A DNA stretch of 5,827 nucleotides. It comes from a virus (lineage: Duplodnaviria > Heunggongvirae > Uroviricota > Caudoviricetes). The stretch covers positions 1 to 5,827 of the IMG/VR virus record IMGVR_UViG_2585427710_000003; one strand, given 5' to 3'. A program made the position numbers and the translations under genes. Under the pieces are notes generated by a model. It was not told the DNA's origin and ran no database searches. It saw nothing but the letters and a program-made list of their open reading frames with translations. Below are positions 1-5,331 of the stretch, one piece after another (positions within the stretch are counted from its first letter, which is position 1; every line of letters begins with the position of its first letter).

Positions 1-621
1 CACACCTGGTTTCTGGCTGGCGAAGGTGAATCCCGGGTAACCGAAGAGCGGCCAGTAAAATCTGAAGCACAGGATATGCTGACCGGGGAGGTCGAACAAA
101 AAGTTACCGCAGACATGATGATTGAGTTTATCGGTCAGGATGGGGCTAAAACGTGTGAGGAACTGGCGGGTAAGTTCGGTGTTAGCATTCGCAAGGTTGC
201 TTCCACGTTGGCGGTCGTAACAGCAACGGGGCGCCTGGCACGCGTAAATCAGAACGGTAAATTTCGTTACTGCATACCGGGCGCTGATTTACCGGCAGAG
301 CCGGAAGCTGCATCCGTAGCGGAAACCGATGGTAAAGCCTTTCCTCAGCCAACAGGTGTTGCGTTACCAGTCCAGGAAACGACGACACAGGAAGAAATGA
401 AAACAGAAATCGTGGAAGACATTGTGAAGTTACAGCCATCGGTCACCGAAACGAAAGCAGATGACCTGATTCTACCATCGCTGCATGTGGCTAACCGCGA
501 GCTGCGCCGGGCAAAAGGTCAGGTTCAGAAGTGGGAGCGTGTCTACGCCGCGCTGCGGGAACTGAACAAACACAGGGATATTCTCCGGGATATTACCGCC
601 ACCAGAGAGCTGCTGCGGTGA
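1..621 (+). CDS. Phage hypothetical protein, 5'-truncated by the window edge; winged-helix-like segment followed by a charged, probably coiled-coil C-terminus
   Basis: The reading frame is open from base 1 (no stop before the first ATG at 76) and ends at TGA 619-621. The translation has an HTH-like stretch (EFIGQDGAKTCEELAGKFGVSIRKVASTL) and a Glu/Lys/Arg-rich tail. The stop overlaps a possible GTG start of the next ORF. Function is unknown; the replication-module neighbourhood is inferred from position only. Confidence 0.55.
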   Translation, partial: HTWFLAGEGESRVTEERPVKSEAQDMLTGEVEQKVTADMMIEFIGQDGAKTCEELAGKFGVSIRKVASTLAVVTATGRLARVNQNGKFRYCIPGADLPAEPEAASVAETDGKAFPQPTGVALPVQETTTQEEMKTEIVEDIVKLQPSVTETKADDLILPSLHVANRELRRAKGQVQKWERVYAALRELNKHRDILRDITATRELLR

Positions 622-653
622 GTGGCTGGAAGAAGTGGCGCTGGGCGGAAATT

Positions 654-935
654 ATGATACTCCGGCAGTGTGCGGGAACGATGACAGTCGAAAGCATCGG
701 CAGTCTGATTGGCCGTAGTGGGGCTGCCGTCAGGACGAAAGCGCGGGAACTGGGTATCTGCATGATGTTACGGGGTGATTATCACCAGTCAGCCAAATGT
801 TCACAGCGTGATATTGAGCTGGCGCGGCAACTGCATCAGCGTGGCGTACCCCGACGGGAAATTGCCGAAAAGTTTGGGATGAAGTTGGGCGCAGTGAATA
901 ACTACGTTTATTTCGACAGGAGGGTTCAGGCGTGA
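654..935 (+). CDS. Small phage protein with two HTH-like segments (hypothetical)
   Basis: The track ORF 531..935 overlaps the upstream gene by about 90 nt, so an internal start is more likely: ATG 654, or GTG 618 overlapping the upstream TGA (GTGA). Translation from 654 contains SIGSLIGRSGAAVRTKARELGI and RREIAEKFGMKLGAVNNYV, both helix-turn-helix-like. It ends at TGA 933-935, overlapping the GTG start of the next gene. Confidence 0.45.
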   Translation: MILRQCAGTMTVESIGSLIGRSGAAVRTKARELGICMMLRGDYHQSAKCSQRDIELARQLHQRGVPRREIAEKFGMKLGAVNNYVYFDRRVQA

Positions 936-1237
936 GGGTGAGAATTTATATCGCCGGTCCGATGACGGGATATGAAAATTTCAACCGTGAGGCGTTTCAC
1001 AAGGCGGAAGAAGCACTGAAACAGGAAGGGCATACCGTATTAAATCCCGCAGTACTTCCGGACGGGCTGACTCAGCCACATTACATGGATATTTGCATGG
1101 CAATGATTCGTTGTGTGGATGCGGTTTATATGCTGGAAGGCTGGCAGCGGTCGGCAGGCGCTAAGGCAGAGCTGGCACTGGCGGAGAAACTGGGGCATGC
1201 AGTTATTTTCCAGGAGGCAACCAGTGAGCGAAATTAA
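932..1237 (+). CDS. DUF4406 / nucleoside 2-deoxyribosyltransferase-like protein
   Basis: GTG start at 932 (alternative GTG at 938) with AGGAGG at 917-922. The N-terminus RIYIAGPMTGYENFNREAF matches from memory the hallmark start of DUF4406 proteins common in prophages. Stop is TAA 1235-1237. Confidence 0.65.
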   Translation: MRVRIYIAGPMTGYENFNREAFHKAEEALKQEGHTVLNPAVLPDGLTQPHYMDICMAMIRCVDAVYMLEGWQRSAGAKAELALAEKLGHAVIFQEATSERN

Positions 1238-1247
1238 TTACCAGGAA
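1224..1247 (+). repeat. 24-bp copy of the 5' end of the 171-aa gene (21/24 identical to 1733-1756); encodes a vestigial start VSEINYQE...
   Basis: GTGAGCGAAATTAATTACCAGGAA at 1224-1247 versus ATGAGCGAGATTAATTATCAGGAA at 1733-1756. Flanks on both sides are unrelated. Compared directly in the sequence. Confidence 0.7.
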
Positions 1248-1384
1248 CTACGGCAGGTGAAAGAGAAAGCATAATCCAGAACTGAATAATTAAAATCAGC
1301 ACTGTAAATAAAATTTAATCCTTAACCGGAGGGATTCCTGCACCCTCAGAACATCAGGAGACCGCCCGGCAGGGCGGTAGTGAA

Positions 1385-1567
1385 ATGCGAAAGTTCAAAA
1401 TAATTATTGAAACGGGAATCGCCGGTGGAGATTCCGAGGATGAATTCGAAGTGAATGATGATGCGACGCCTGATGAAATTCATAACGAAGCAAAAGAAAT
1501 TTTCTTTAACTACTGCAATTACTCATATCACGAAATAAAAGACGAAGAGGAAGAACAAAATGGCTGA
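1385..1567 (+). CDS. Small, highly acidic protein (60 aa; 18 Asp/Glu against 5 Lys/Arg); candidate DNA-mimic or anti-defence accessory protein
   Basis: ATG at 1385 is preceded by AGGAG (1356-1360), then a CCGCCC-GGCA-GGGCGG hairpin (1362-1377). Composition is strongly acidic with a C-terminal DEEEEQ. The stop TGA 1565-1567 overlaps the next ATG. It lies in an AT-rich segment that differs from its flanks. Confidence 0.5.
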   Translation: MRKFKIIIETGIAGGDSEDEFEVNDDATPDEIHNEAKEIFFNYCNYSYHEIKDEEEEQNG

Positions 1568-1736
1568 TTTTGGTTCAACTAAATACAACGTCAGTTTTGA
1601 AGAATGGCATGAACTGTTAATGGACTATGCAGAGTTACGTGGTGGAAGTGCCGCCGATGCTGAAGCATGGCGTGATGACTATGAAGCAGGAAAAACTCCG
1701 GTCGAAGCATATTGTGATGAGTGGGGCGATGAATGA
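1560..1736 (+). CDS. Second small acidic protein (58 aa, MADFGSTKYNVSFEEWHELLMDYAELRGGSAADAEAWRDDYEAGKTPVEAYCDEWGDE); below the length cut-off of the supplied ORF track
   Basis: ATG 1560 overlaps the stop of the previous ORF (ATGGCTGA), and its own stop TGA 1734-1736 overlaps ATG 1733 of the next gene (ATGA). It has 16 Asp/Glu against 4 Lys/Arg. The coupling on both sides supports translation. Confidence 0.45.
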   Translation: MADFGSTKYNVSFEEWHELLMDYAELRGGSAADAEAWRDDYEAGKTPVEAYCDEWGDE

Positions 1737-2248
1737 GCGAGATTAATTATCAGGAAGGGCATGAAACGGCAGGGCAGGCAAAACCAGTGGCATGGCGATA
1801 TCGCTACGTGAAAAAAGACGTTACAGACTTTCAGGGGAAGCAGTGGGCTGGTGACTGGAAATATGTACCGACAAAAGAGGATTGTAACGACAGGCCGAAC
1901 TATGAAATTCAGGCCTTATTCATCGGCCCGCCAGTCCCGGTGACATCAGAAGGACTGGTTAAAGCTGTGCGCTTTTATGAACAGGTAAAGCGTGAGAATC
2001 CGCCAGTCGAAACAGGAGCATGGAAGGATGCTGTTGACTGGGTGCTCAGAGAGGCCTGCTGTGCTGCCATTCTGGGTAAAGCCGACAATCCACCAGCATC
2101 CGGCAATCAGGTTAGCGAATTAGCAATGTGGGTTAAACGGCTGGTCAGCCAACTGAAAAAAGCGAAGCCGGACTGCAAATTACCGGATAAGGCGATGGAC
2201 TACCTGAAGCGAAACGGACTGATAAACGAGGAGAATATTTTACGATGA
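1733..2248 (+). CDS. Hypothetical phage protein (171 aa)
   Basis: ATG start coupled to the upstream ORF, 171 codons with balanced composition. Its first 8 codons are duplicated at 1224-1247. Stop TGA 2246-2248 overlaps ATG 2245 of a micro-ORF. No family recognised. Confidence 0.6.
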   Translation: MSEINYQEGHETAGQAKPVAWRYRYVKKDVTDFQGKQWAGDWKYVPTKEDCNDRPNYEIQALFIGPPVPVTSEGLVKAVRFYEQVKRENPPVETGAWKDAVDWVLREACCAAILGKADNPPASGNQVSELAMWVKRLVSQLKKAKPDCKLPDKAMDYLKRNGLINEENILR

Positions 2249-2328
2249 CCTGGCCTGAAGCGTTCATAACGGTAGGAATTGCAATGGCGGTGGCGCTGGT
2301 GGTGTATTCGATTTGCCGCTGGGGATAA
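2245..2328 (+). CDS. Possible 27-aa hydrophobic micro-protein (MTWPEAFITVGIAMAVALVVYSICRWG)
   Basis: ATG 2245 overlaps the stop of the 171-aa gene (ATGA). The peptide has a single predicted transmembrane-like hydrophobic core and ends at TAA 2326-2328. It is too short to judge by statistics; the coupling is the only support. Confidence 0.3.
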   Translation: MTWPEAFITVGIAMAVALVVYSICRWG

Positions 2329-2335
2329 AAACGGT

Positions 2336-2363
2336 TTGCGGGGAAAGAAGAGTTAAGTAGAAT
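2336..2363 (+). promoter_or_regulatory. Candidate promoter for the hok/mok mRNA (-35 TTGCGG 2336-2341, 16-bp spacer, -10 TAGAAT 2358-2363)
   Basis: Sigma70-like hexamers with correct spacing lie just upstream of a sequence (GGTGCTTGAGGCTGTCTGCC, from about 2371) that resembles the 5' end of plasmid R1 hok mRNA as I recall it. Confidence 0.4.
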
Positions 2364-2424
2364 TGCTGCGGGTGCTTGAGGCTGTCTGCCTCGGGCATGC
2401 CGCCGTAAGGCAGACAGAGAAAAG

Positions 2425-2490
2425 CCCCAGTTAACATTATGCGTCCGGCAGGACGCTTAACATTAATCTGAGGCCATATCTATGACTTGC
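2425..2490 (-). ncRNA. sok: Sok-like antisense RNA (antitoxin of the hok/mok type I TA locus); ends approximate
   Basis: Minus strand has -35 TTGCCT (complement of 2520-2525), a 17-bp spacer and -10 TAATCT (complement of 2497-2502), which would start a transcript near 2490. That transcript is antisense to the mok SD and start (2468-2484) and contains the GCGTCC-GGCA-GGACGC hairpin (2441-2456). This matches the known hok/sok arrangement. Confidence 0.4.
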
Positions 2491-2694
2491 ACACTTAGAT
2501 TAGCCTCTTATGCGCCGAAAGGCAAGGAGCAGCAGGCTATGAAGCAGCAAAAGGCGATGCTAATCGCCCTGATCGTCATCTGTATTACCGTCGTTGTAAC
2601 GGTACTGGTAACGAGGAAAGACCTCTGCGAGGTACGAATCCGAACCGGCCAGACGGAGGTCGCTGTCTTCACAGCTTACGAACCTGAGGAGTAA
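2482..2694 (+). CDS. mok: Mok-like leader reading frame (70 aa), in frame with hok and sharing its stop
   Basis: ATG 2482 has GAGG about 9 nt upstream. The ORF runs in frame into the hok ORF, as I recall chromosomal mok/hok pairs do. The sok target would cover its start. Confidence 0.5.
   Translation: MTCTLRLASYAPKGKEQQAMKQQKAMLIALIVICITVVVTVLVTRKDLCEVRIRTGQTEVAVFTAYEPEE
2497..2525 (-). promoter_or_regulatory. Candidate sok promoter on the minus strand, inside the mok coding region
   Basis: Reverse complement of 2497-2525 reads TTGCCT-17 bp-TAATCT. The position inside mok and the orientation toward the mok start match known hok/sok loci. Confidence 0.4.
2539..2694 (+). CDS. hok: Hok/Gef-family type I toxin (51 aa, MKQQKAMLIALIVICITVVVTVLVTRKDLCEVRIRTGQTEVAVFTAYEPEE)
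   Basis: ATG 2539 with AAGGAG at 2524-2529. The translation has the Hok/Gef signature: N-terminal transmembrane helix, TRKDLCEV, and a ...EVAVFTAYE... tail. From memory it is closest to HokD(RelF)/HokC(Gef). The flanking mRNA elements (leader, mok, terminator) are all present. Confidence 0.9.
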   Translation: MKQQKAMLIALIVICITVVVTVLVTRKDLCEVRIRTGQTEVAVFTAYEPEE

Positions 2695-2762
2695 GAGACC
2701 AGGCGGGGGAGAAATCCCTCGCCACCTCTGATGTGTCAGGCATCCTCAACGCACCCGCACTT

Positions 2763-2790
2763 AACCCGTTTCGGCGGGTTTTGTTTTTTC
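2763..2790 (+). terminator. Rho-independent terminator of the hok mRNA
   Basis: AACCCG (2763-2768) pairs with CGGGTT (2775-2780), followed by TTGTTTTTT (2781-2789). It sits about 70 nt after the hok stop. Confidence 0.7.
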
Positions 2791-2860
2791 CTGGCATTCT
2801 GGTTTACAATTCGCACGCCAGCCTGAACAACTGGCACCTGCTGCGTCACCGGAGAACCCG

Positions 2861-3133
2861 ATGGCGCAACATATAAAATCCCACAATTCTGAAGCCGTCC
2901 CGGCCATTAAGCGGGGGCGGCATTCGCACGTATTTAAAACCGACTGGTACCAGCATCCCCCCTGCACTGAAGAACAGGCCGAATGGCTGATTCAGTGTTA
3001 CCGCAGGCGCGGATACGAGGTTAAGAAAGCCATCAGCCTCGATTATCGTCACTGGATAATCTCTGTCAGGCTCCCTTATTCCGAACATCCACCGCGTCCG
3101 TCCCGCACATTCCAGCAACGTATCTGGAGGTAA
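2861..3133 (+). CDS. Hypothetical phage protein (90 aa)
   Basis: ATG 2861 with GGAGA at 2851-2855. Stop TAA 3131-3133 lies 1 nt before the GTG start of the DUF968-like gene, which implies co-translation. A minus-strand ORF of similar size overlaps it but has no start context. Confidence 0.5.
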   Translation: MAQHIKSHNSEAVPAIKRGRHSHVFKTDWYQHPPCTEEQAEWLIQCYRRRGYEVKKAISLDYRHWIISVRLPYSEHPPRPSRTFQQRIWR

Positions 3134-3134
3134 C

Positions 3135-4184
3135 GTGCGGGTATTACTTCGACCTGTTCTGGTGCCGGAACTTGGCCTGGTGGTCCTTAAGCCCGGACGC
3201 GAATCACTGCCTGTTTTTCATTGCGGCAGGGTGCTGGTGGAGCCGGAACCGAAAAACATGCGCGGTCTGCCGTCCGGAGTCGTTCCTGCCGTTCGCCAGC
3301 CGCTGGCAGAGGATAAAACATTACTGCCATTTTTCTGCGATGAGCGGGTTATTCGTGCAGCAGGTGGTGCAGGTGCACTGTCTGACTGGTTATTACGTCA
3401 CGTGAAATCCTGCCAGTGGCCACACGGCGATTATCATCACAGCGAAACCGTCATTCACCGTTATGGTACCGGCGCGATGGTGTTGTGCTGGCACTGTGAC
3501 AACCAGCTGCGCGACCAGACATCAGAATCACTCGATCAACTTGCTCAGCAGAATCTGGTTGCCTGGATGATTGACGTCATCCGTCACGCAATAAGCGGTA
3601 CGCAGGAGAGGGAGTTATCGCTGGCCGAATTATCCTGGTGGGCGGCCTGCAATCAGGTGGTGGATGCACTACCTGAGGCAGTAGCGCGTTGTTCGCTGGG
3701 ATTACCAGCGGAAAAAATCCGCTCCGTATACCGTGAGAGTGACATCGTACCGGGAGAACAGACAGCCATCAGCATACTGAAGCAGCGCACAAAAAATATT
3801 GCGCTGCCACTTCACGTCCACCAGCAACAAAATCCACCACAGAAAAAAACGGTTGTCAGTATCGCCGTTGATCCGGAGTCTCCTGAATCGTTCATGAGGC
3901 GGCCTAAATGTCGCCGTTGGGTTAATGAGAAATACACGCGCTGGGTAAAGACACAGCCGTGTGCGTGTTGTGGTAAGCCAGCTGACGATCCGCATCACCT
4001 GATTGGTCATGGTCAGGGGGGAATGGGAACAAAGGCCCACGATATTTTCACGCTACCGTTGTGCCGGGAGCACCACAACGAACTTCATGCAGACCCGCAG
4101 GAGTTTGAGAAAAAGTACGGCTCTCAGATTGAGTTAATTTTTCGTTTTCTTGATCACGCCTTTGCGACTGGCGTGCTCGGGTAA
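3135..4184 (+). CDS. DUF968-like prophage protein with a C-terminal HNH/His-Me-finger-like Cys/His motif
   Basis: GTG 3135 with GGAGG at 3126-3130; an internal ATG at 3258 is an alternative start. The C-terminus reads CACCGKPADDPHHLIGHGQGG...LPLCREHHNELH, and there is an earlier C..WHCDN cluster. From memory this resembles the DUF968 proteins found next to Q in E. coli cryptic prophages. Confidence 0.75.
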   Translation: MRVLLRPVLVPELGLVVLKPGRESLPVFHCGRVLVEPEPKNMRGLPSGVVPAVRQPLAEDKTLLPFFCDERVIRAAGGAGALSDWLLRHVKSCQWPHGDYHHSETVIHRYGTGAMVLCWHCDNQLRDQTSESLDQLAQQNLVAWMIDVIRHAISGTQERELSLAELSWWAACNQVVDALPEAVARCSLGLPAEKIRSVYRESDIVPGEQTAISILKQRTKNIALPLHVHQQQNPPQKKTVVSIAVDPESPESFMRRPKCRRWVNEKYTRWVKTQPCACCGKPADDPHHLIGHGQGGMGTKAHDIFTLPLCREHHNELHADPQEFEKKYGSQIELIFRFLDHAFATGVLG

Positions 4185-4196
4185 AAGAGGTGACTG

Positions 4197-4556
4197 ATGC
4201 TCATAGATTTGGTTTTACCTTACCCGCCGACGGTGAACACTTACTGGCGACGCCGTGGCAGCACATATTTTGTATCAAAAGCCGGGGAGCGTTATCGCCG
4301 GGCAGTGGCGCTTATTGTTCGCCAGCAGCGGCTGAAATTAAGCCTGTCCGGACGGCTGGCAATAAAAATTATTGCAGAGCCACCGGATAAGCGCCGCCGT
4401 GACCTGGACAATATTCTGAAAGCACCGCTGGATGCGCTGACGCACGCGGGGTTGTTAATGGACGATGAGCAGTTTGATGAAATCAATATTGTACGTGGCA
4501 AGCCAGTATCTGGTGGACGGCTGGAGATAAAAATTACAGAGGTGGGGTGTGCATGA
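4197..4556 (+). CDS. rusA: RusA-family Holliday-junction resolvase
   Basis: ATG 4197 with AAAGAGG at 4184-4190. The 119-aa translation has the RusA hallmarks YPPTVNTYWR, DKRRRDLDN and GGRLEIKITE. Its position immediately upstream of Q is typical of lambdoid phages. Confidence 0.85.
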   Translation: MLIDLVLPYPPTVNTYWRRRGSTYFVSKAGERYRRAVALIVRQQRLKLSLSGRLAIKIIAEPPDKRRRDLDNILKAPLDALTHAGLLMDDEQFDEINIVRGKPVSGGRLEIKITEVGCA

Positions 4557-5242
4557 ATAACCAGTATTTACAGTTTGTTCGTGAGCAACTCATGATTGCC
4601 ACTGCGGATCTCAGTGGGGCGACAAAAGGTCAACTGGAAGCCTGTCAGGAAAATGCCCTGTTCGATACAGGGCGTTACAGACGCAAAAAAATTCGTTACC
4701 GCGATGAGGTAACCGGAAAAATGATCACGCGGGATAATCCCCCAATCCCGGGTAAACAATCACTGGCGAAAGGCTCATCAATTGCCCTGGTCAGTCCTGT
4801 TGAGTTTGCAACATCATCGTGGCGGCGTACCCTTCTGGAACTGGAAGAACATCAGAAGGCGTGGTTGTTGTGGTGTTATGGCGGAAACATTTGCTGGGAG
4901 CATCAGATCGCGATAACGCAGTGGGTGTGGAATGAATTTAAAACTCAGTCTGGTACCAGAAAAATTGCAGTGAAAACGCTGGAGCGTGTGAAGAAGTTGA
5001 TCTGGCTGGCGGCACAGGATGTCAGAGGATGGGTTACCGGGTGTGAGGTCTACCAGAGACAGGAGCTTGCCAGACTGTGTGGAGTTAAGCCTGATAACTG
5101 GAGCCATAATTATGCGAACTACTGGCGTGAGATGTGCGATATTTTTAAGCGCCTCGATAGAGAATCCTTGATTTGCTCCGTGAAAATAAGAGCGCAACAA
5201 AAAGCGACCTTTTCACGACGAGATATTGCAAAAGTCAATTAA
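4553..5242 (+). CDS. Q-like late-gene antiterminator (putative)
   Basis: ATG 4553 overlaps the rusA stop (ATGA) with GAGGTGG at 4540-4546; the track start at 4547 is a GTG. The 229-aa ORF sits between rusA and a short leader with an intrinsic terminator, the canonical position of Q. The assignment is mainly by synteny; I do not recognise the sequence with certainty. Confidence 0.6.
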   Translation: MNNQYLQFVREQLMIATADLSGATKGQLEACQENALFDTGRYRRKKIRYRDEVTGKMITRDNPPIPGKQSLAKGSSIALVSPVEFATSSWRRTLLELEEHQKAWLLWCYGGNICWEHQIAITQWVWNEFKTQSGTRKIAVKTLERVKKLIWLAAQDVRGWVTGCEVYQRQELARLCGVKPDNWSHNYANYWREMCDIFKRLDRESLICSVKIRAQQKATFSRRDIAKVN

Positions 5243-5303
5243 ATCGCGTATGTTTCGTATAAATCTGATATTTTGCCTATTTTGTACGCGATGACAAAAT
5301 AAG
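5243..5303 (+). promoter_or_regulatory. Candidate late promoter (pR'-like) and Q-utilisation region
   Basis: AT-rich stretch between the Q stop and the terminator, with a -10-like TATAAA at 5258-5263 and a weak -35. Q-dependent late promoters typically have a poor -35 and a short terminated leader. This is inference only. Confidence 0.3.
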
Positions 5304-5331
5304 AAAAAAACTGCCGCCAGGCGGTTTTTTT
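5304..5331 (+). terminator. Intrinsic terminator (tR'-like), symmetric with an A-tract and a T-tract, so possibly bidirectional
   Basis: AAAAAAA (5304-5310), then a GC hairpin CCGC-CAG-GCGG (5314-5324), then TTTTTTT (5325-5331). Confidence 0.7.

What the first reader, a model, noticed from the sequence alone, without database searches (positions are those of the whole stretch)
932..1237. DUF4406 (nucleoside 2-deoxyribosyltransferase-like) gene in the phage early region
The RIYIAGPMTG N-terminus marks a nucleoside deoxyribosyltransferase-like fold. Enzymes of this fold act on nucleosides and nucleotides. In a phage early operon this could mean nucleotide-pool manipulation, DNA modification, or degradation of a nucleotide-based immune signal. 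No function is established for the prophage versions as far as I know.
Basis: partly seen in the sequence, partly recalled or inferred. Interest (0 to 1): 0.4.

Follow-up and report, generated by a model that had tools for sequence, protein, structure and literature searches.

The report
Small phage nucleotide-cleaving enzyme, function untested
This is a real 101-residue gene in the early region of an E. coli Shiga-toxin-type prophage; it belongs to the uncharacterised DUF4406 family, a cut-down relative of enzymes that cut the base off deoxynucleotides, and databases already label it, so it is ordinary as a finding although its job in the phage is still unknown.

Summary
ORF 932..1237 (+) has a GTG start, an AGGAGGG ribosome-binding site 7 nt upstream and a 4-base overlap with the upstream stop codon. 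It encodes a 101-aa protein that matches Pfam DUF4406 end to end (E=3.5e-37). It is under strong purifying selection (median dN/dS 0.10).

Profile alignments place Tyr6 and Glu80 on the catalytic Tyr and Glu nucleophile of NDT and DNPH1. Ser74-x-Gly76-x3-Glu80 copies the 5'-phosphate-binding motif of the nucleotide hydrolases DNPH1 and MilB, where true transferases have Asp. The general-acid Asp is replaced by Cys55, and the C-terminal segment that completes the active site in known enzymes is missing.

My best reading is a DNPH1-like N-glycosidase acting on 2'-deoxynucleoside 5'-monophosphates. It is expressed from the delayed-early operon and works without a dedicated partner gene. The substrate and the role in the phage are inferred, not shown.

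The gene occurs in 1192 of 5426 complete E. coli genomes, and RefSeq already names it DUF4406. No functional study was found. Detection is not new; interest is modest.

The parts
918..924 (+). Shine-Dalgarno sequence AGGAGGG, 7 nt upstream of the GTG start
   Evidence: Read directly from the sequence.
932..1237 (+). DUF4406 gene (101 aa; GTG start overlapping the upstream TGA stop as GTGA; TAA stop)
   Evidence: ORF list. Pfam PF14359 E=3.5e-37, full length. PHROG 355 E=1.5e-47. Identical PGAP CDS WP_053294093.1. dN/dS about 0.10. AF2 model pLDDT 92.9.
947..970 (+). Codons for Y6-I-A-G-P-M-T-G13. Tyr6 is the counterpart of Tyr7 (NDT) and Tyr13/24 (Rcl/DNPH1). The G9-P10-M11-T12-G13 loop follows strand 1; M11 aligns with the base-stacking Ile18/29 of Rcl/DNPH1.
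   Evidence: hhalign with rat Rcl and L. leichmannii NDT. Conservation: Y6 94/105, G9 104/105, P10 99/105, M11 91/105, G13 98/105. Roles of Y24 and I29 in DNPH1 from PMC10603095.
1082..1096 (+). Codons for Y51-M52-D53-I54-C55. Y51 is invariant and M52 nearly so; they probably line the base pocket. Cys55 (TGC 1094-1096) occupies the position of the general-acid Asp72 (NDT), Asp69/80 (Rcl/DNPH1) and the equivalent Asn of T. brucei PDT.
   Evidence: Three independent alignments agree. Column counts: Y51 105/105; position 55 is C 85, D 8, G 4, T 4 of 105.
1151..1171 (+). Codons for S74-A-G76-A-K-A-E80. This is the Ser-x-Gly-x3-Glu motif: predicted 5'-phosphate contacts (Ser74, Gly76) and the predicted catalytic nucleophile Glu80 (GAG 1169-1171).
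   Evidence: Aligns with S87-L-G-V-G-Y-E93 of rat Rcl and D92-V-G-L-G-M-E98 of NDT. The spacing equals S97/G99/E103 of MilB, where Ser97 and Gly99 bind the phosphate (PMC4081090). DNPH1 S98 binds phosphate and E104 forms the covalent intermediate (PMC10603095). Conservation: S74 104/105, G76 103/105, E80 104/105.
654..935 (+). Upstream helix-turn-helix 'DNA-binding protein' gene, translationally coupled to the DUF4406 gene. It is a neighbour in the same operon, not an obligate partner.
   Evidence: PGAP CDS in L001. PHROG 323 'transcriptional regulator' E=1.1e-27. In 79 close relatives the upstream gene is one of two unrelated families, 49 versus 29.
1224..1247 (+). Mosaic joint at the 3' end of the gene: GTGAGCGAAATTAATTACCAGGAA is a near-copy of the first 24 nt of ORF 1733..2248.
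   Evidence: Direct comparison of the two stretches. Downstream neighbours differ among close relatives, at least 6 families.

Best explanation
The gene encodes a stand-alone, minimal (four-stranded, 101-aa) enzyme of the nucleoside 2-deoxyribosyltransferase superfamily. It most likely works like DNPH1/Rcl, MilB and phage DmtZ, as an N-glycosidase on a nucleoside 5'-monophosphate, most probably a 2'-deoxynucleotide. In the proposed mechanism the nucleotide sits at the C-terminal ends of the strands. The base lies between Met11 and Tyr51/Met52. The 5'-phosphate is held by Ser74, the Gly76 backbone and the G9-P-M-T-G13 loop. Glu80, positioned by Tyr6, attacks C1' to form a covalent (deoxy)ribosyl-5-phosphate-enzyme ester and releases the free base; water, or possibly another base, then resolves the ester. 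The gene is transcribed with the delayed-early rightward operon between the replication genes and Q. The activity would therefore appear while phage DNA replication is running. Its likely role is editing or sanitising the deoxynucleotide pool, by removing an unwanted or non-canonical dNMP or recycling bases. What is shown: the gene is real and under selection; family membership; the fold; conservation and alignment of Tyr, Ser-x-Gly and Glu; operon position; absence of a conserved partner gene. What is inferred: covalent catalysis, the 5'-phosphate and 2'-deoxy preference, the identity of the base, and the benefit to the phage.
Against: No member of DUF4406 has been assayed, and no structure of the family is in the PDB. 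The general-acid Asp of the Tyr/Asp/Glu triad is replaced by Cys55; only 8/105 homologues have Asp, and others have Gly or Thr. The protein ends right after strand 4. It therefore lacks the segment that carries Asn123 and the C-terminus in NDT, and the Ser128' helical extension that completes the phosphate site across the dimer in DNPH1. The residue mapping rests on sequence-profile alignments of low statistical weight (hhalign E 0.06-0.12); no residue-level structural superposition could be made here. The match to PF05014 is below its cut-off (17.2 vs 28.8 bits). Destroying dNMPs during replication is not obviously useful to a phage with canonical DNA. No modified-base pathway is encoded in the window. 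The PF18909 adjacency is only 2 of 47 contexts.
Confidence: 0.5

Rival explanations
1. It is a genuine nucleoside 2'-deoxyribosyltransferase: it swaps bases between unphosphorylated deoxynucleosides for salvage, as its PHROG and many GenBank labels say.
For: PHROG 355 and many phage records carry this name. The closest Foldseek and sequence-profile matches are transferases from T. brucei, Leishmania and Chroococcidiopsis. Tyr6 and Glu80 are conserved. NDTs in dZ phages show dA-specific transfer (bioRxiv 10.1101/2025.10.22.683976).
Against: Position 74 is Ser (104/105), not the Asp92 that holds the 5'-OH in transferases. Ser at this position is the mark of the nucleotide hydrolases. PF05014 scores below its gathering cut-off. 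The Asn123 region and the C-terminal tail of NDTs are absent. The labels are homology transfers, not tests.
Confidence: 0.15
2. It is a counter-defence enzyme. It cleaves NAD+/NMN-derived or other nucleotide immune signals (for example cADPR-type Thoeris signals) or their precursors, using the same Glu as TIR-type NADases.
Against: No sequence-profile match to TIR or SLOG families, and none to any defence-system model. NDT, MilB and DUF1937 score higher than TIRs. Tyr6 argues for a 2'-deoxy sugar, whereas NAD-derived signals are ribosyl. The known anti-Kongming enzyme is a HAD phosphatase, not an NDT-fold protein, and Kongming is triggered by phage dNMP kinases, which this window does not encode. 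No anti-defence report for this family was found.
Confidence: 0.12
3. It acts on ribonucleotides, as a CMP/AMP-type N-glycosidase like MilB/BcmB or LOG-like enzymes, changing ribonucleotide or base pools rather than dNMPs.
Against: This protein and 94/105 homologues have Tyr at position 6, the residue linked to deoxyribose preference; the MilB F17Y mutation switches MilB toward deoxyribose substrates. MilB's Arg23 is a Thr/Ser here.
Confidence: 0.1
4. It is not an enzyme but a small nucleotide-binding protein, acting as a sponge or regulator that sequesters a nucleotide.
For: It is very small (101 aa). It lacks the canonical Asp and the C-terminal active-site completion. Phage sponges for nucleotide signals are a known class; this is general knowledge and was not tested here.
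Against: The nucleophile Glu80 and Tyr6 are almost invariant across roughly 40-95% identical homologues. That pattern is expected for catalysis rather than mere binding. DmtZ and T. brucei PDT work with Asn in place of the Asp.
Confidence: 0.08

Closest known systems
DNPH1 / Rcl (2'-deoxynucleoside 5'-phosphate N-hydrolase 1; PDB 2khz, 4fyh, 8qhq)
   Different: 101 aa versus about 150-170 aa. Cys55 replaces the general acid Asp69/80. There is no helical extension with Ser128' from the partner subunit and no E55/H56 element. Sequence identity is about 18-22%. Oligomeric state is unknown. No activity data.
MilB / BcmB (CMP and hydroxymethyl-CMP N-glycosidases; PDB 4ohr, 4jem, 4jen)
   Different: MilB has Phe17 (ribose preference) where this protein has Tyr6. 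MilB Asp78 and Arg23 correspond to Cys55 and Thr12. MilB is about 160 aa and works in antibiotic biosynthesis.
DmtZ of Z-genome actinophages (Gordonia phage Ghobes; PMC12884076)
   Same: A phage-encoded NDT-superfamily protein that hydrolyses a dNMP (dAMP) and lacks the canonical Asp (it has Asn77). It shows that phages use this fold on 5'-phosphorylated deoxynucleotides.
   Different: DmtZ is about 145 aa and matched no Pfam model; the authors built their own HMM. It is tied to PurZ0/DutZ genes and 2-aminoadenine DNA. The present phage region has none of these genes and presumably has canonical DNA.
Nucleoside 2'-deoxyribosyltransferases (PF05014; L. leichmannii 1f8x, T. brucei 2a0k)
   Same: Fold, Tyr and Glu nucleophile. 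Best sequence-profile hit among solved structures (2a0k, E=3e-4).
   Different: Asp92 (5'-OH contact) is Ser74 here. The Asn123 region and the C-terminal carboxylate contribution are absent. PF05014 scores below threshold.
DUF1937 (PF09152; PDB 1t1j, P. aeruginosa hypothetical protein)
   Different: Only 17% identity. The score is below the DUF1937 cut-off. Its function is likewise unknown, so it adds nothing on mechanism.

Membership tests
DUF4406 (Pfam PF14359) | Score above the curated gathering threshold over the whole domain | tested here: met
   127.1 bits vs cut-off 22, E=3.5e-37, profile 2-91/91, protein 4-93. PGAP gives the same name.
DUF4406 (Pfam PF14359) | Family signature residues (IYIAGPMxG; LNPxxLPxGL; YM; GWxxSxGAxxE) | tested here: met
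   All are present in the window protein. Near-invariant columns of a 105-sequence alignment: G9 P10 G13 N18 F22 N38 P39 P43 G45 L46 Y51 M52 G70 W71 S74 G76 A77 E80 A84.
Nucleoside 2-deoxyribosyltransferase superfamily (fold level) | Flavodoxin-like alpha/beta fold shared with NDT, DNPH1 and MilB | tested here: met
Nucleoside 2-deoxyribosyltransferase superfamily (catalytic triad Tyr/Asp/Glu) | Glutamate nucleophile | tested here: met
   E80 aligns with E98 (1f8x), E93 (2khz) and the corresponding Glu of 2a0k. Present in 104/105 homologues.
Nucleoside 2-deoxyribosyltransferase superfamily (catalytic triad Tyr/Asp/Glu) | Tyrosine after strand 1 | tested here: met
   Y6 aligns with Y7/Y13. Tyr in 94/105 and Phe in 9/105 homologues.
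Nucleoside 2-deoxyribosyltransferase superfamily (catalytic triad Tyr/Asp/Glu) | General-acid aspartate on the helix after the long loop | tested here: not met
   The aligned residue is Cys55 in three independent alignments. The column is C 85, D 8, G 4, T 4 of 105. Active members with Asn at this site exist: T. brucei PDT and DmtZ.
Nucleoside 2'-deoxyribosyltransferase proper (PF05014; nucleoside substrates) | PF05014 score above the gathering threshold | tested here: not met
   17.2 bits vs cut-off 28.8, E=0.0059.
Nucleoside 2'-deoxyribosyltransferase proper (PF05014; nucleoside substrates) | Asp92-type and Asn123-type contacts to the sugar hydroxyls; C-terminal residue of a neighbouring subunit in the active site | tested here: not met
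   Asp92 aligns with Ser74. The protein ends at residue 101, just after strand 4 (90-93), so the Asn123 region and the C-terminal tail do not exist. The residue roles in NDT are from my own knowledge of the L. leichmannii enzyme.
DNPH1/MilB-type nucleotide N-hydrolases | Serine (and the following Gly) six residues before the nucleophile Glu, binding the 5'-phosphate | tested here: met
   S74-A-G76-A-K-A-E80 compares with S87-L-G-V-G-Y-E93 in Rcl and S97/G99/E103 in MilB. DNPH1 S98 binds phosphate. S74 is in 104/105 and G76 in 103/105 homologues.
DNPH1/MilB-type nucleotide N-hydrolases | Second phosphate contact (Ser128' from the partner subunit in DNPH1, or Arg23 in MilB) and a dimeric active site | tested here: not met
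   There is no C-terminal helical extension. The MilB Arg23 / Rcl Arg19 position is Thr12. The oligomeric state could not be modelled with the tools available.
DNPH1/MilB-type nucleotide N-hydrolases | Measured hydrolysis of a (d)NMP to base plus (deoxy)ribose 5-phosphate through a covalent Glu ester | not testable with these tools
   Needs enzyme assays. No published assay of any DUF4406 protein was found.
TIR-domain NADases / SLOG signal-binding domains | Sequence-profile membership | tested here: not met

The most novel reading that the evidence does not exclude
DUF4406 could be a distinct minimal branch of the NDT fold that has dropped the general-acid Asp (Cys55 instead) because its natural substrate carries an easily leaving or unusual base. 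Candidates are an NAD-derived or base-modified immune messenger or its precursor, or a modified or damaged dNMP. On that reading this widespread small early protein would be a phage counter-defence or pool-sanitising enzyme of a kind not yet described for temperate phages with canonical DNA.
Probability: 0.12. Interest if true: 0.7.

Novelty: already known. Interest (0 to 1): 0.3.

Why it matters
DUF4406 is common. It is found in 22% of complete E. coli genomes, in 537 deposited phage genomes from Proteobacteria to Actinobacteria, and in more than 12,000 protein clusters at 50% identity. No member has a tested function. The residue analysis here gives a concrete, cheap hypothesis to test: a dNMP N-glycosidase with a Ser-x-Gly-x3-Glu site, Tyr for deoxy sugars, and Cys in place of the acid. 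If it holds, many database labels would need correcting ('nucleoside deoxyribosyltransferase', 'hydrolase', even 'deoxycytidylate deaminase'). It would also add a nucleotide-pool enzyme to the accessory early genes of Shiga-toxin and other lambdoid prophages. As a genome-scan finding it is an already annotated gene of a known family, so the value lies in the functional prediction, not in the detection.

Tried and rejected
1. Domain fusions as clues to function.
- The 'deoxycytidylate deaminase' (Arthrobacter phage Kepler gp54) and 'hydrolase' (Gordonia phages Gudmit gp64, Clown gp12) labels under tblastn hits are stand-alone 67-122-aa DUF4406 proteins, not fusions.
- Ten long representatives (190-358 aa) show no second Pfam domain.
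- One (P0249) has an N-terminal part that matches PHROG 1238/24386 and carries what looks to me like a DxDxT phosphatase motif; it is a single case.
- Partial matches to PHROG 12019 'MazG-like' and 15484 'hydrolase' cover only the DUF4406 part, and I could not recover a true fusion.

2. Conserved neighbours.
- In 79 close relatives the upstream gene is one of two families and the downstream gene one of at least six.
- In 47 diverse loci, 183 neighbours form 174 clusters. No obligate partner emerges.
- The only suggestive adjacency is PF18909 in 2 contexts.

3. Defence and anti-defence links. There is no PADLOC hit. The Kongming counter-defence enzyme is a HAD phosphatase, not an NDT-fold protein.

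4. Other databases and literature. NCBIfam has no model for the protein. Literature searches for DUF4406, PF14359, DUF1937, nin region plus deoxyribosyltransferase, and dNMP N-glycosidase in phages found no functional study of the family.

5. Failed or unavailable steps.
- The search for related loci with the 105-sequence alignment failed for lack of a conserved stretch; it was redone with 20 sequences.
- Two papers on NDT/MilB specificity (PMC3585086, PMC3750073) are not held. The Tyr/Phe and Ser points were instead taken from PMC10603095 and PMC4081090.
- The idea that the gene is a prophage-expressed defence against modified-base phages was set aside. It sits, translationally coupled, inside the lytic early operon with no promoter-like site nearby.

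Full report
**1. Observation**

The window holds an ORF at 932..1237 on the + strand.
- It has a GTG start, a TAA stop and 101 codons, and the N-terminus reads MRVRIYIAGPMTG.
- An AGGAGGG ribosome-binding site lies at 918-924.
- The start overlaps the TGA of the upstream gene (GTGA at 932-935), the usual sign of translational coupling.
- The same CDS, with the same boundaries, is annotated by PGAP as 'DUF4406 domain-containing protein' (WP_053294093.1) in E. coli 00-3076, where the gene is 100% identical.
- Against 48 distinct alleles recovered from viral contigs, dN/dS has a median of 0.10.

The gene is real and its product is under purifying selection.

**2. Genomic setting**

- Window positions 221-4524 are 98.3% identical to a prophage inserted next to potC in E. 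coli 00-3076. That prophage carries stx2a further downstream.
- The annotated order there is: regulator, YdaT-like, DnaT-like, replication protein P, DUF1627, HTH DNA-binding protein, DUF4406, DUF7167, two hypothetical genes, hok/sok, a hypothetical gene, DUF968/YdfU, RusA, Q antiterminator.
- The window's own genes match these families.
- The consensus scan found no sigma-70-like promoter or intrinsic-terminator-like site in 400-1800.
Expression timing is inferred from this position, not measured.

**3. Family and spread**

- Pfam DUF4406 matches over its whole length (E=3.5e-37, 127 bits against a cut-off of 22).
- DUF1937 and Nuc_deoxyrib_tr match only below their cut-offs.
- PHROG 355, labelled nucleoside 2-deoxyribosyltransferase, matches at 1.5e-47.
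- NCBIfam and PADLOC have no model for it.
- The gene is found in 1192 of 5426 complete E. coli genomes.
- It occurs in 537 phage records, mainly from Arthrobacter, Vibrio, Gordonia, Mycobacterium and Pseudomonas phages.
- It has 12,299 representative clusters at E<=0.001.

**4. Structure**

- With a 105-sequence alignment, AlphaFold2 gives a confident model (pLDDT 92.9, pTM 0.85). It has four strands (4-8, 35-37, 64-67, 90-93) alternating with three helices.
- Foldseek gives the same family, with query-normalised TM-scores of 0.69-0.76.
- No DUF4406 protein has been solved. The best sequence-level match of the family profile is the T. brucei enzyme at E=3e-4.
- The protein is about 50 residues shorter than the characterised enzymes and stops just after strand 4.

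**5. Active site**

I aligned the family profile to rat Rcl and L. leichmannii NDT. Both template sequences were first checked to be identical to PDB 2khz and 1f8x. Together with the HMMER alignment to 2a0k, the mapping is consistent:
- Tyr6 on Tyr13/Tyr7.
- Met11 on Ile18.
- Cys55 on Asp69/Asp72, which is Asn in the T. brucei enzyme.
- Ser74 on Ser87 of Rcl, but on Asp92 of NDT.
- Gly76 on Gly89/Gly94.
- Glu80 on the nucleophile Glu93/Glu98.

Conservation among 105 homologues:

| Position | Residue counts |
|---|---|
| Glu80 | 104 |
| Ser74 | 104 |
| Gly76 | 103 |
| Tyr6 | 94 (Phe 9) |
| Tyr51 | 105 |
| Position 55 | Cys 85, Asp 8, Gly 4, Thr 4 |

The published structures give these residues their meaning.
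- In human DNPH1 the triad is Y24/D80/E104, and E104 forms the covalent deoxyribose-phosphate ester.
- S98 and S128' from the other subunit hold the phosphate. I29 and I76 sandwich the base.
- Tyr versus Phe at the first position decides deoxyribose versus ribose; MilB F17Y reverts the preference (PMC10603095).
- In MilB, Ser97 and Gly99 bind the phosphate and E103 is catalytic (PMC4081090).

The window protein therefore has the nucleophile, the Tyr and the Ser-x-Gly phosphate motif of the nucleotide hydrolases. It lacks the acid Asp and the whole C-terminal part that supplies the second phosphate contact.

The statistical weight of the single-template alignments is low (hhalign E 0.06-0.12). 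I could not superpose coordinates, so the mapping is well supported but not proven.

**6. Context and partners**

- In 79 close relatives, the upstream gene is either a LygF-like protein (49) or the HTH protein seen here (29). The downstream gene belongs to at least six unrelated families.
- A near-copy of the start of ORF 1733 sits at 1224-1247, marking a recombination joint.
- In 47 DUF4406 loci that differ by more than 30%, the 183 neighbouring ORFs fall into 174 clusters.
- The gene is thus an independent mosaic module and the protein probably acts alone.
- The only suggestive recurrence is a dATP/dGTP diphosphohydrolase-domain gene (PF18909, E=3.2e-31) directly downstream in two contexts. 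That enzyme class produces dNMPs and accompanies the NDT-like DmtZ in Z-genome phages.
- Apparent fusions suggested by database labels were not real.

**7. Literature**

- DUF4406 is named in three papers, in two of them only once and in the third twice, and never in a title or abstract. No functional study was found.
- The nearest precedents are phage enzymes of the same superfamily but other families.
  - DmtZ is a dAMP-specific N-hydrolase that also transfers deoxyribose 5-phosphate to 2-aminoadenine. It has Asn in place of the Asp (PMC12884076).
  - An NDT that prefers dA is found in dZ phages (bioRxiv 10.1101/2025.10.22.683976).
- Depleting dAMP is a proven counter-defence against Kongming, but the enzyme is a HAD phosphatase, and the trigger, a phage dNMP kinase, is absent here.

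**8. Interpretation**

The best-supported model is a DNPH1/MilB-like N-glycosidase acting on a 2'-deoxynucleoside 5'-monophosphate through a Glu80 ester, made during early lytic growth.

Confidence by layer (0 to 1):
- Fold and Glu-based chemistry: about 0.85.
- 5'-phosphorylated substrate: about 0.55.
- Biological role (pool editing or sanitising): about 0.3.
- The statement as a whole: 0.5.

Rivals are a true nucleoside transferase (0.15), a counter-defence hydrolase of NAD-derived or other signals (0.12), a ribonucleotide glycosidase (0.10) and a non-catalytic binder (0.08).

**9. Novelty and score**

The gene is already annotated with this family name in RefSeq in more than a thousand E. 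coli genomes, so the finding itself is already known.

What this analysis adds:
- The residue-level prediction: Ser for Asp at the phosphate position, Tyr for deoxy sugars, Cys for the acid Asp, and a truncated C-terminus.
- Evidence that the protein has no fixed partner gene.
- A list of misleading database labels.

Interest is 0.3. It would rise to about 0.7 only if the missing acid reflects an unusual substrate such as an immune messenger or a modified nucleotide, which I rate at about 12%.

Noticed in passing
window 1224-1247 and 1733-1756: GTGAGCGAAATTAATTACCAGGAA at the 3' end of the DUF4406 gene is a near-copy of the first 24 nt of ORF 1733..2248 (ATGAGCGAGATTAATTATCAGGAA). The DUF7167 (1385..1567) and PHROG 519 (1560..1736) genes look like a module inserted at a recombination joint. 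A truncated reading frame (GTG ... SEINYQELRQVKEKA, to 1274) remains.
   Followed up: partly
window 2370-2694: A hok/mok/sok toxin-antitoxin locus. Rfam sok matches at 2370-2544 (114.8 bits vs 59). The Mok/Hok ORF lies at 2482..2694 and is annotated 'Hok/Gef family protein' in L001.
   Followed up: partly
window 4525-5314 (Q antiterminator gene 4547..5242): This stretch does not align to the otherwise 98.3% identical prophage of E. coli 00-3076. The window carries a different Q allele (PF06323, 231 aa), so the late-regulation module has been swapped. Positions 1-220 also fail to align.
   Followed up: partly
L211 3339-3698; L189 and L190 3775-4095: A dATP/dGTP diphosphohydrolase N-terminal domain gene (PF18909, E=3.2e-31 for the L211 ORF) lies directly downstream of the DUF4406 gene in these viral contigs. 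That is 2 independent cases among 47 diverse contexts. The pairing resembles DUF5664/DutZ plus DmtZ in Z-genome phages.
   Followed up: partly
L002 2977-3345 (Arthrobacter phage Kepler gp54); also Arthrobacter phage Galaxy gp50: Kepler gp54, deposited as 'deoxycytidylate deaminase', is a 122-aa stand-alone protein at the DUF4406 match, so the label looks like a misannotation. Galaxy gp50 carries the same label under its DUF4406 match but was not inspected. Other actinophage copies are labelled 'hydrolase' or 'nucleoside deoxyribosyltransferase'.
   Followed up: partly
DUF4406 homologues: L003 2995-3321 (Gordonia phage Gudmit gp64), L087 2501-2854 (Rhizobium phage RHph_TM3_3_10): The family is split at the position of the general acid. 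It is Cys in most enterobacterial and Vibrio copies and appears to be Gly in Gudmit gp64. The Rhizobium phage copy has AADLKW, resembling the Rcl EQDLNW motif with the canonical Asp, plus a long loop insertion. The mapping for the two phage copies was done by eye only.
   Followed up: no
window 1361-1378: A perfect 7-bp GC-rich hairpin (ACCGCCC GGCA GGGCGGT) lies in the 147-nt non-coding gap after the DUF4406 gene, ending 6 nt before the ATG of the DUF7167 gene. No T-run follows it, and the terminator scan did not call it.
   Followed up: no
window 3135-4184: A DUF968/YdfU protein (349 aa) has a C-terminal weak HNH-like match (PF16784 E=8.3e-5, below cut-off) and matches PHROG 96 'HNH endonuclease' at E=3e-172. 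A related protein recurs directly downstream of DUF4406 in three of the 47 diverse loci.
   Followed up: no
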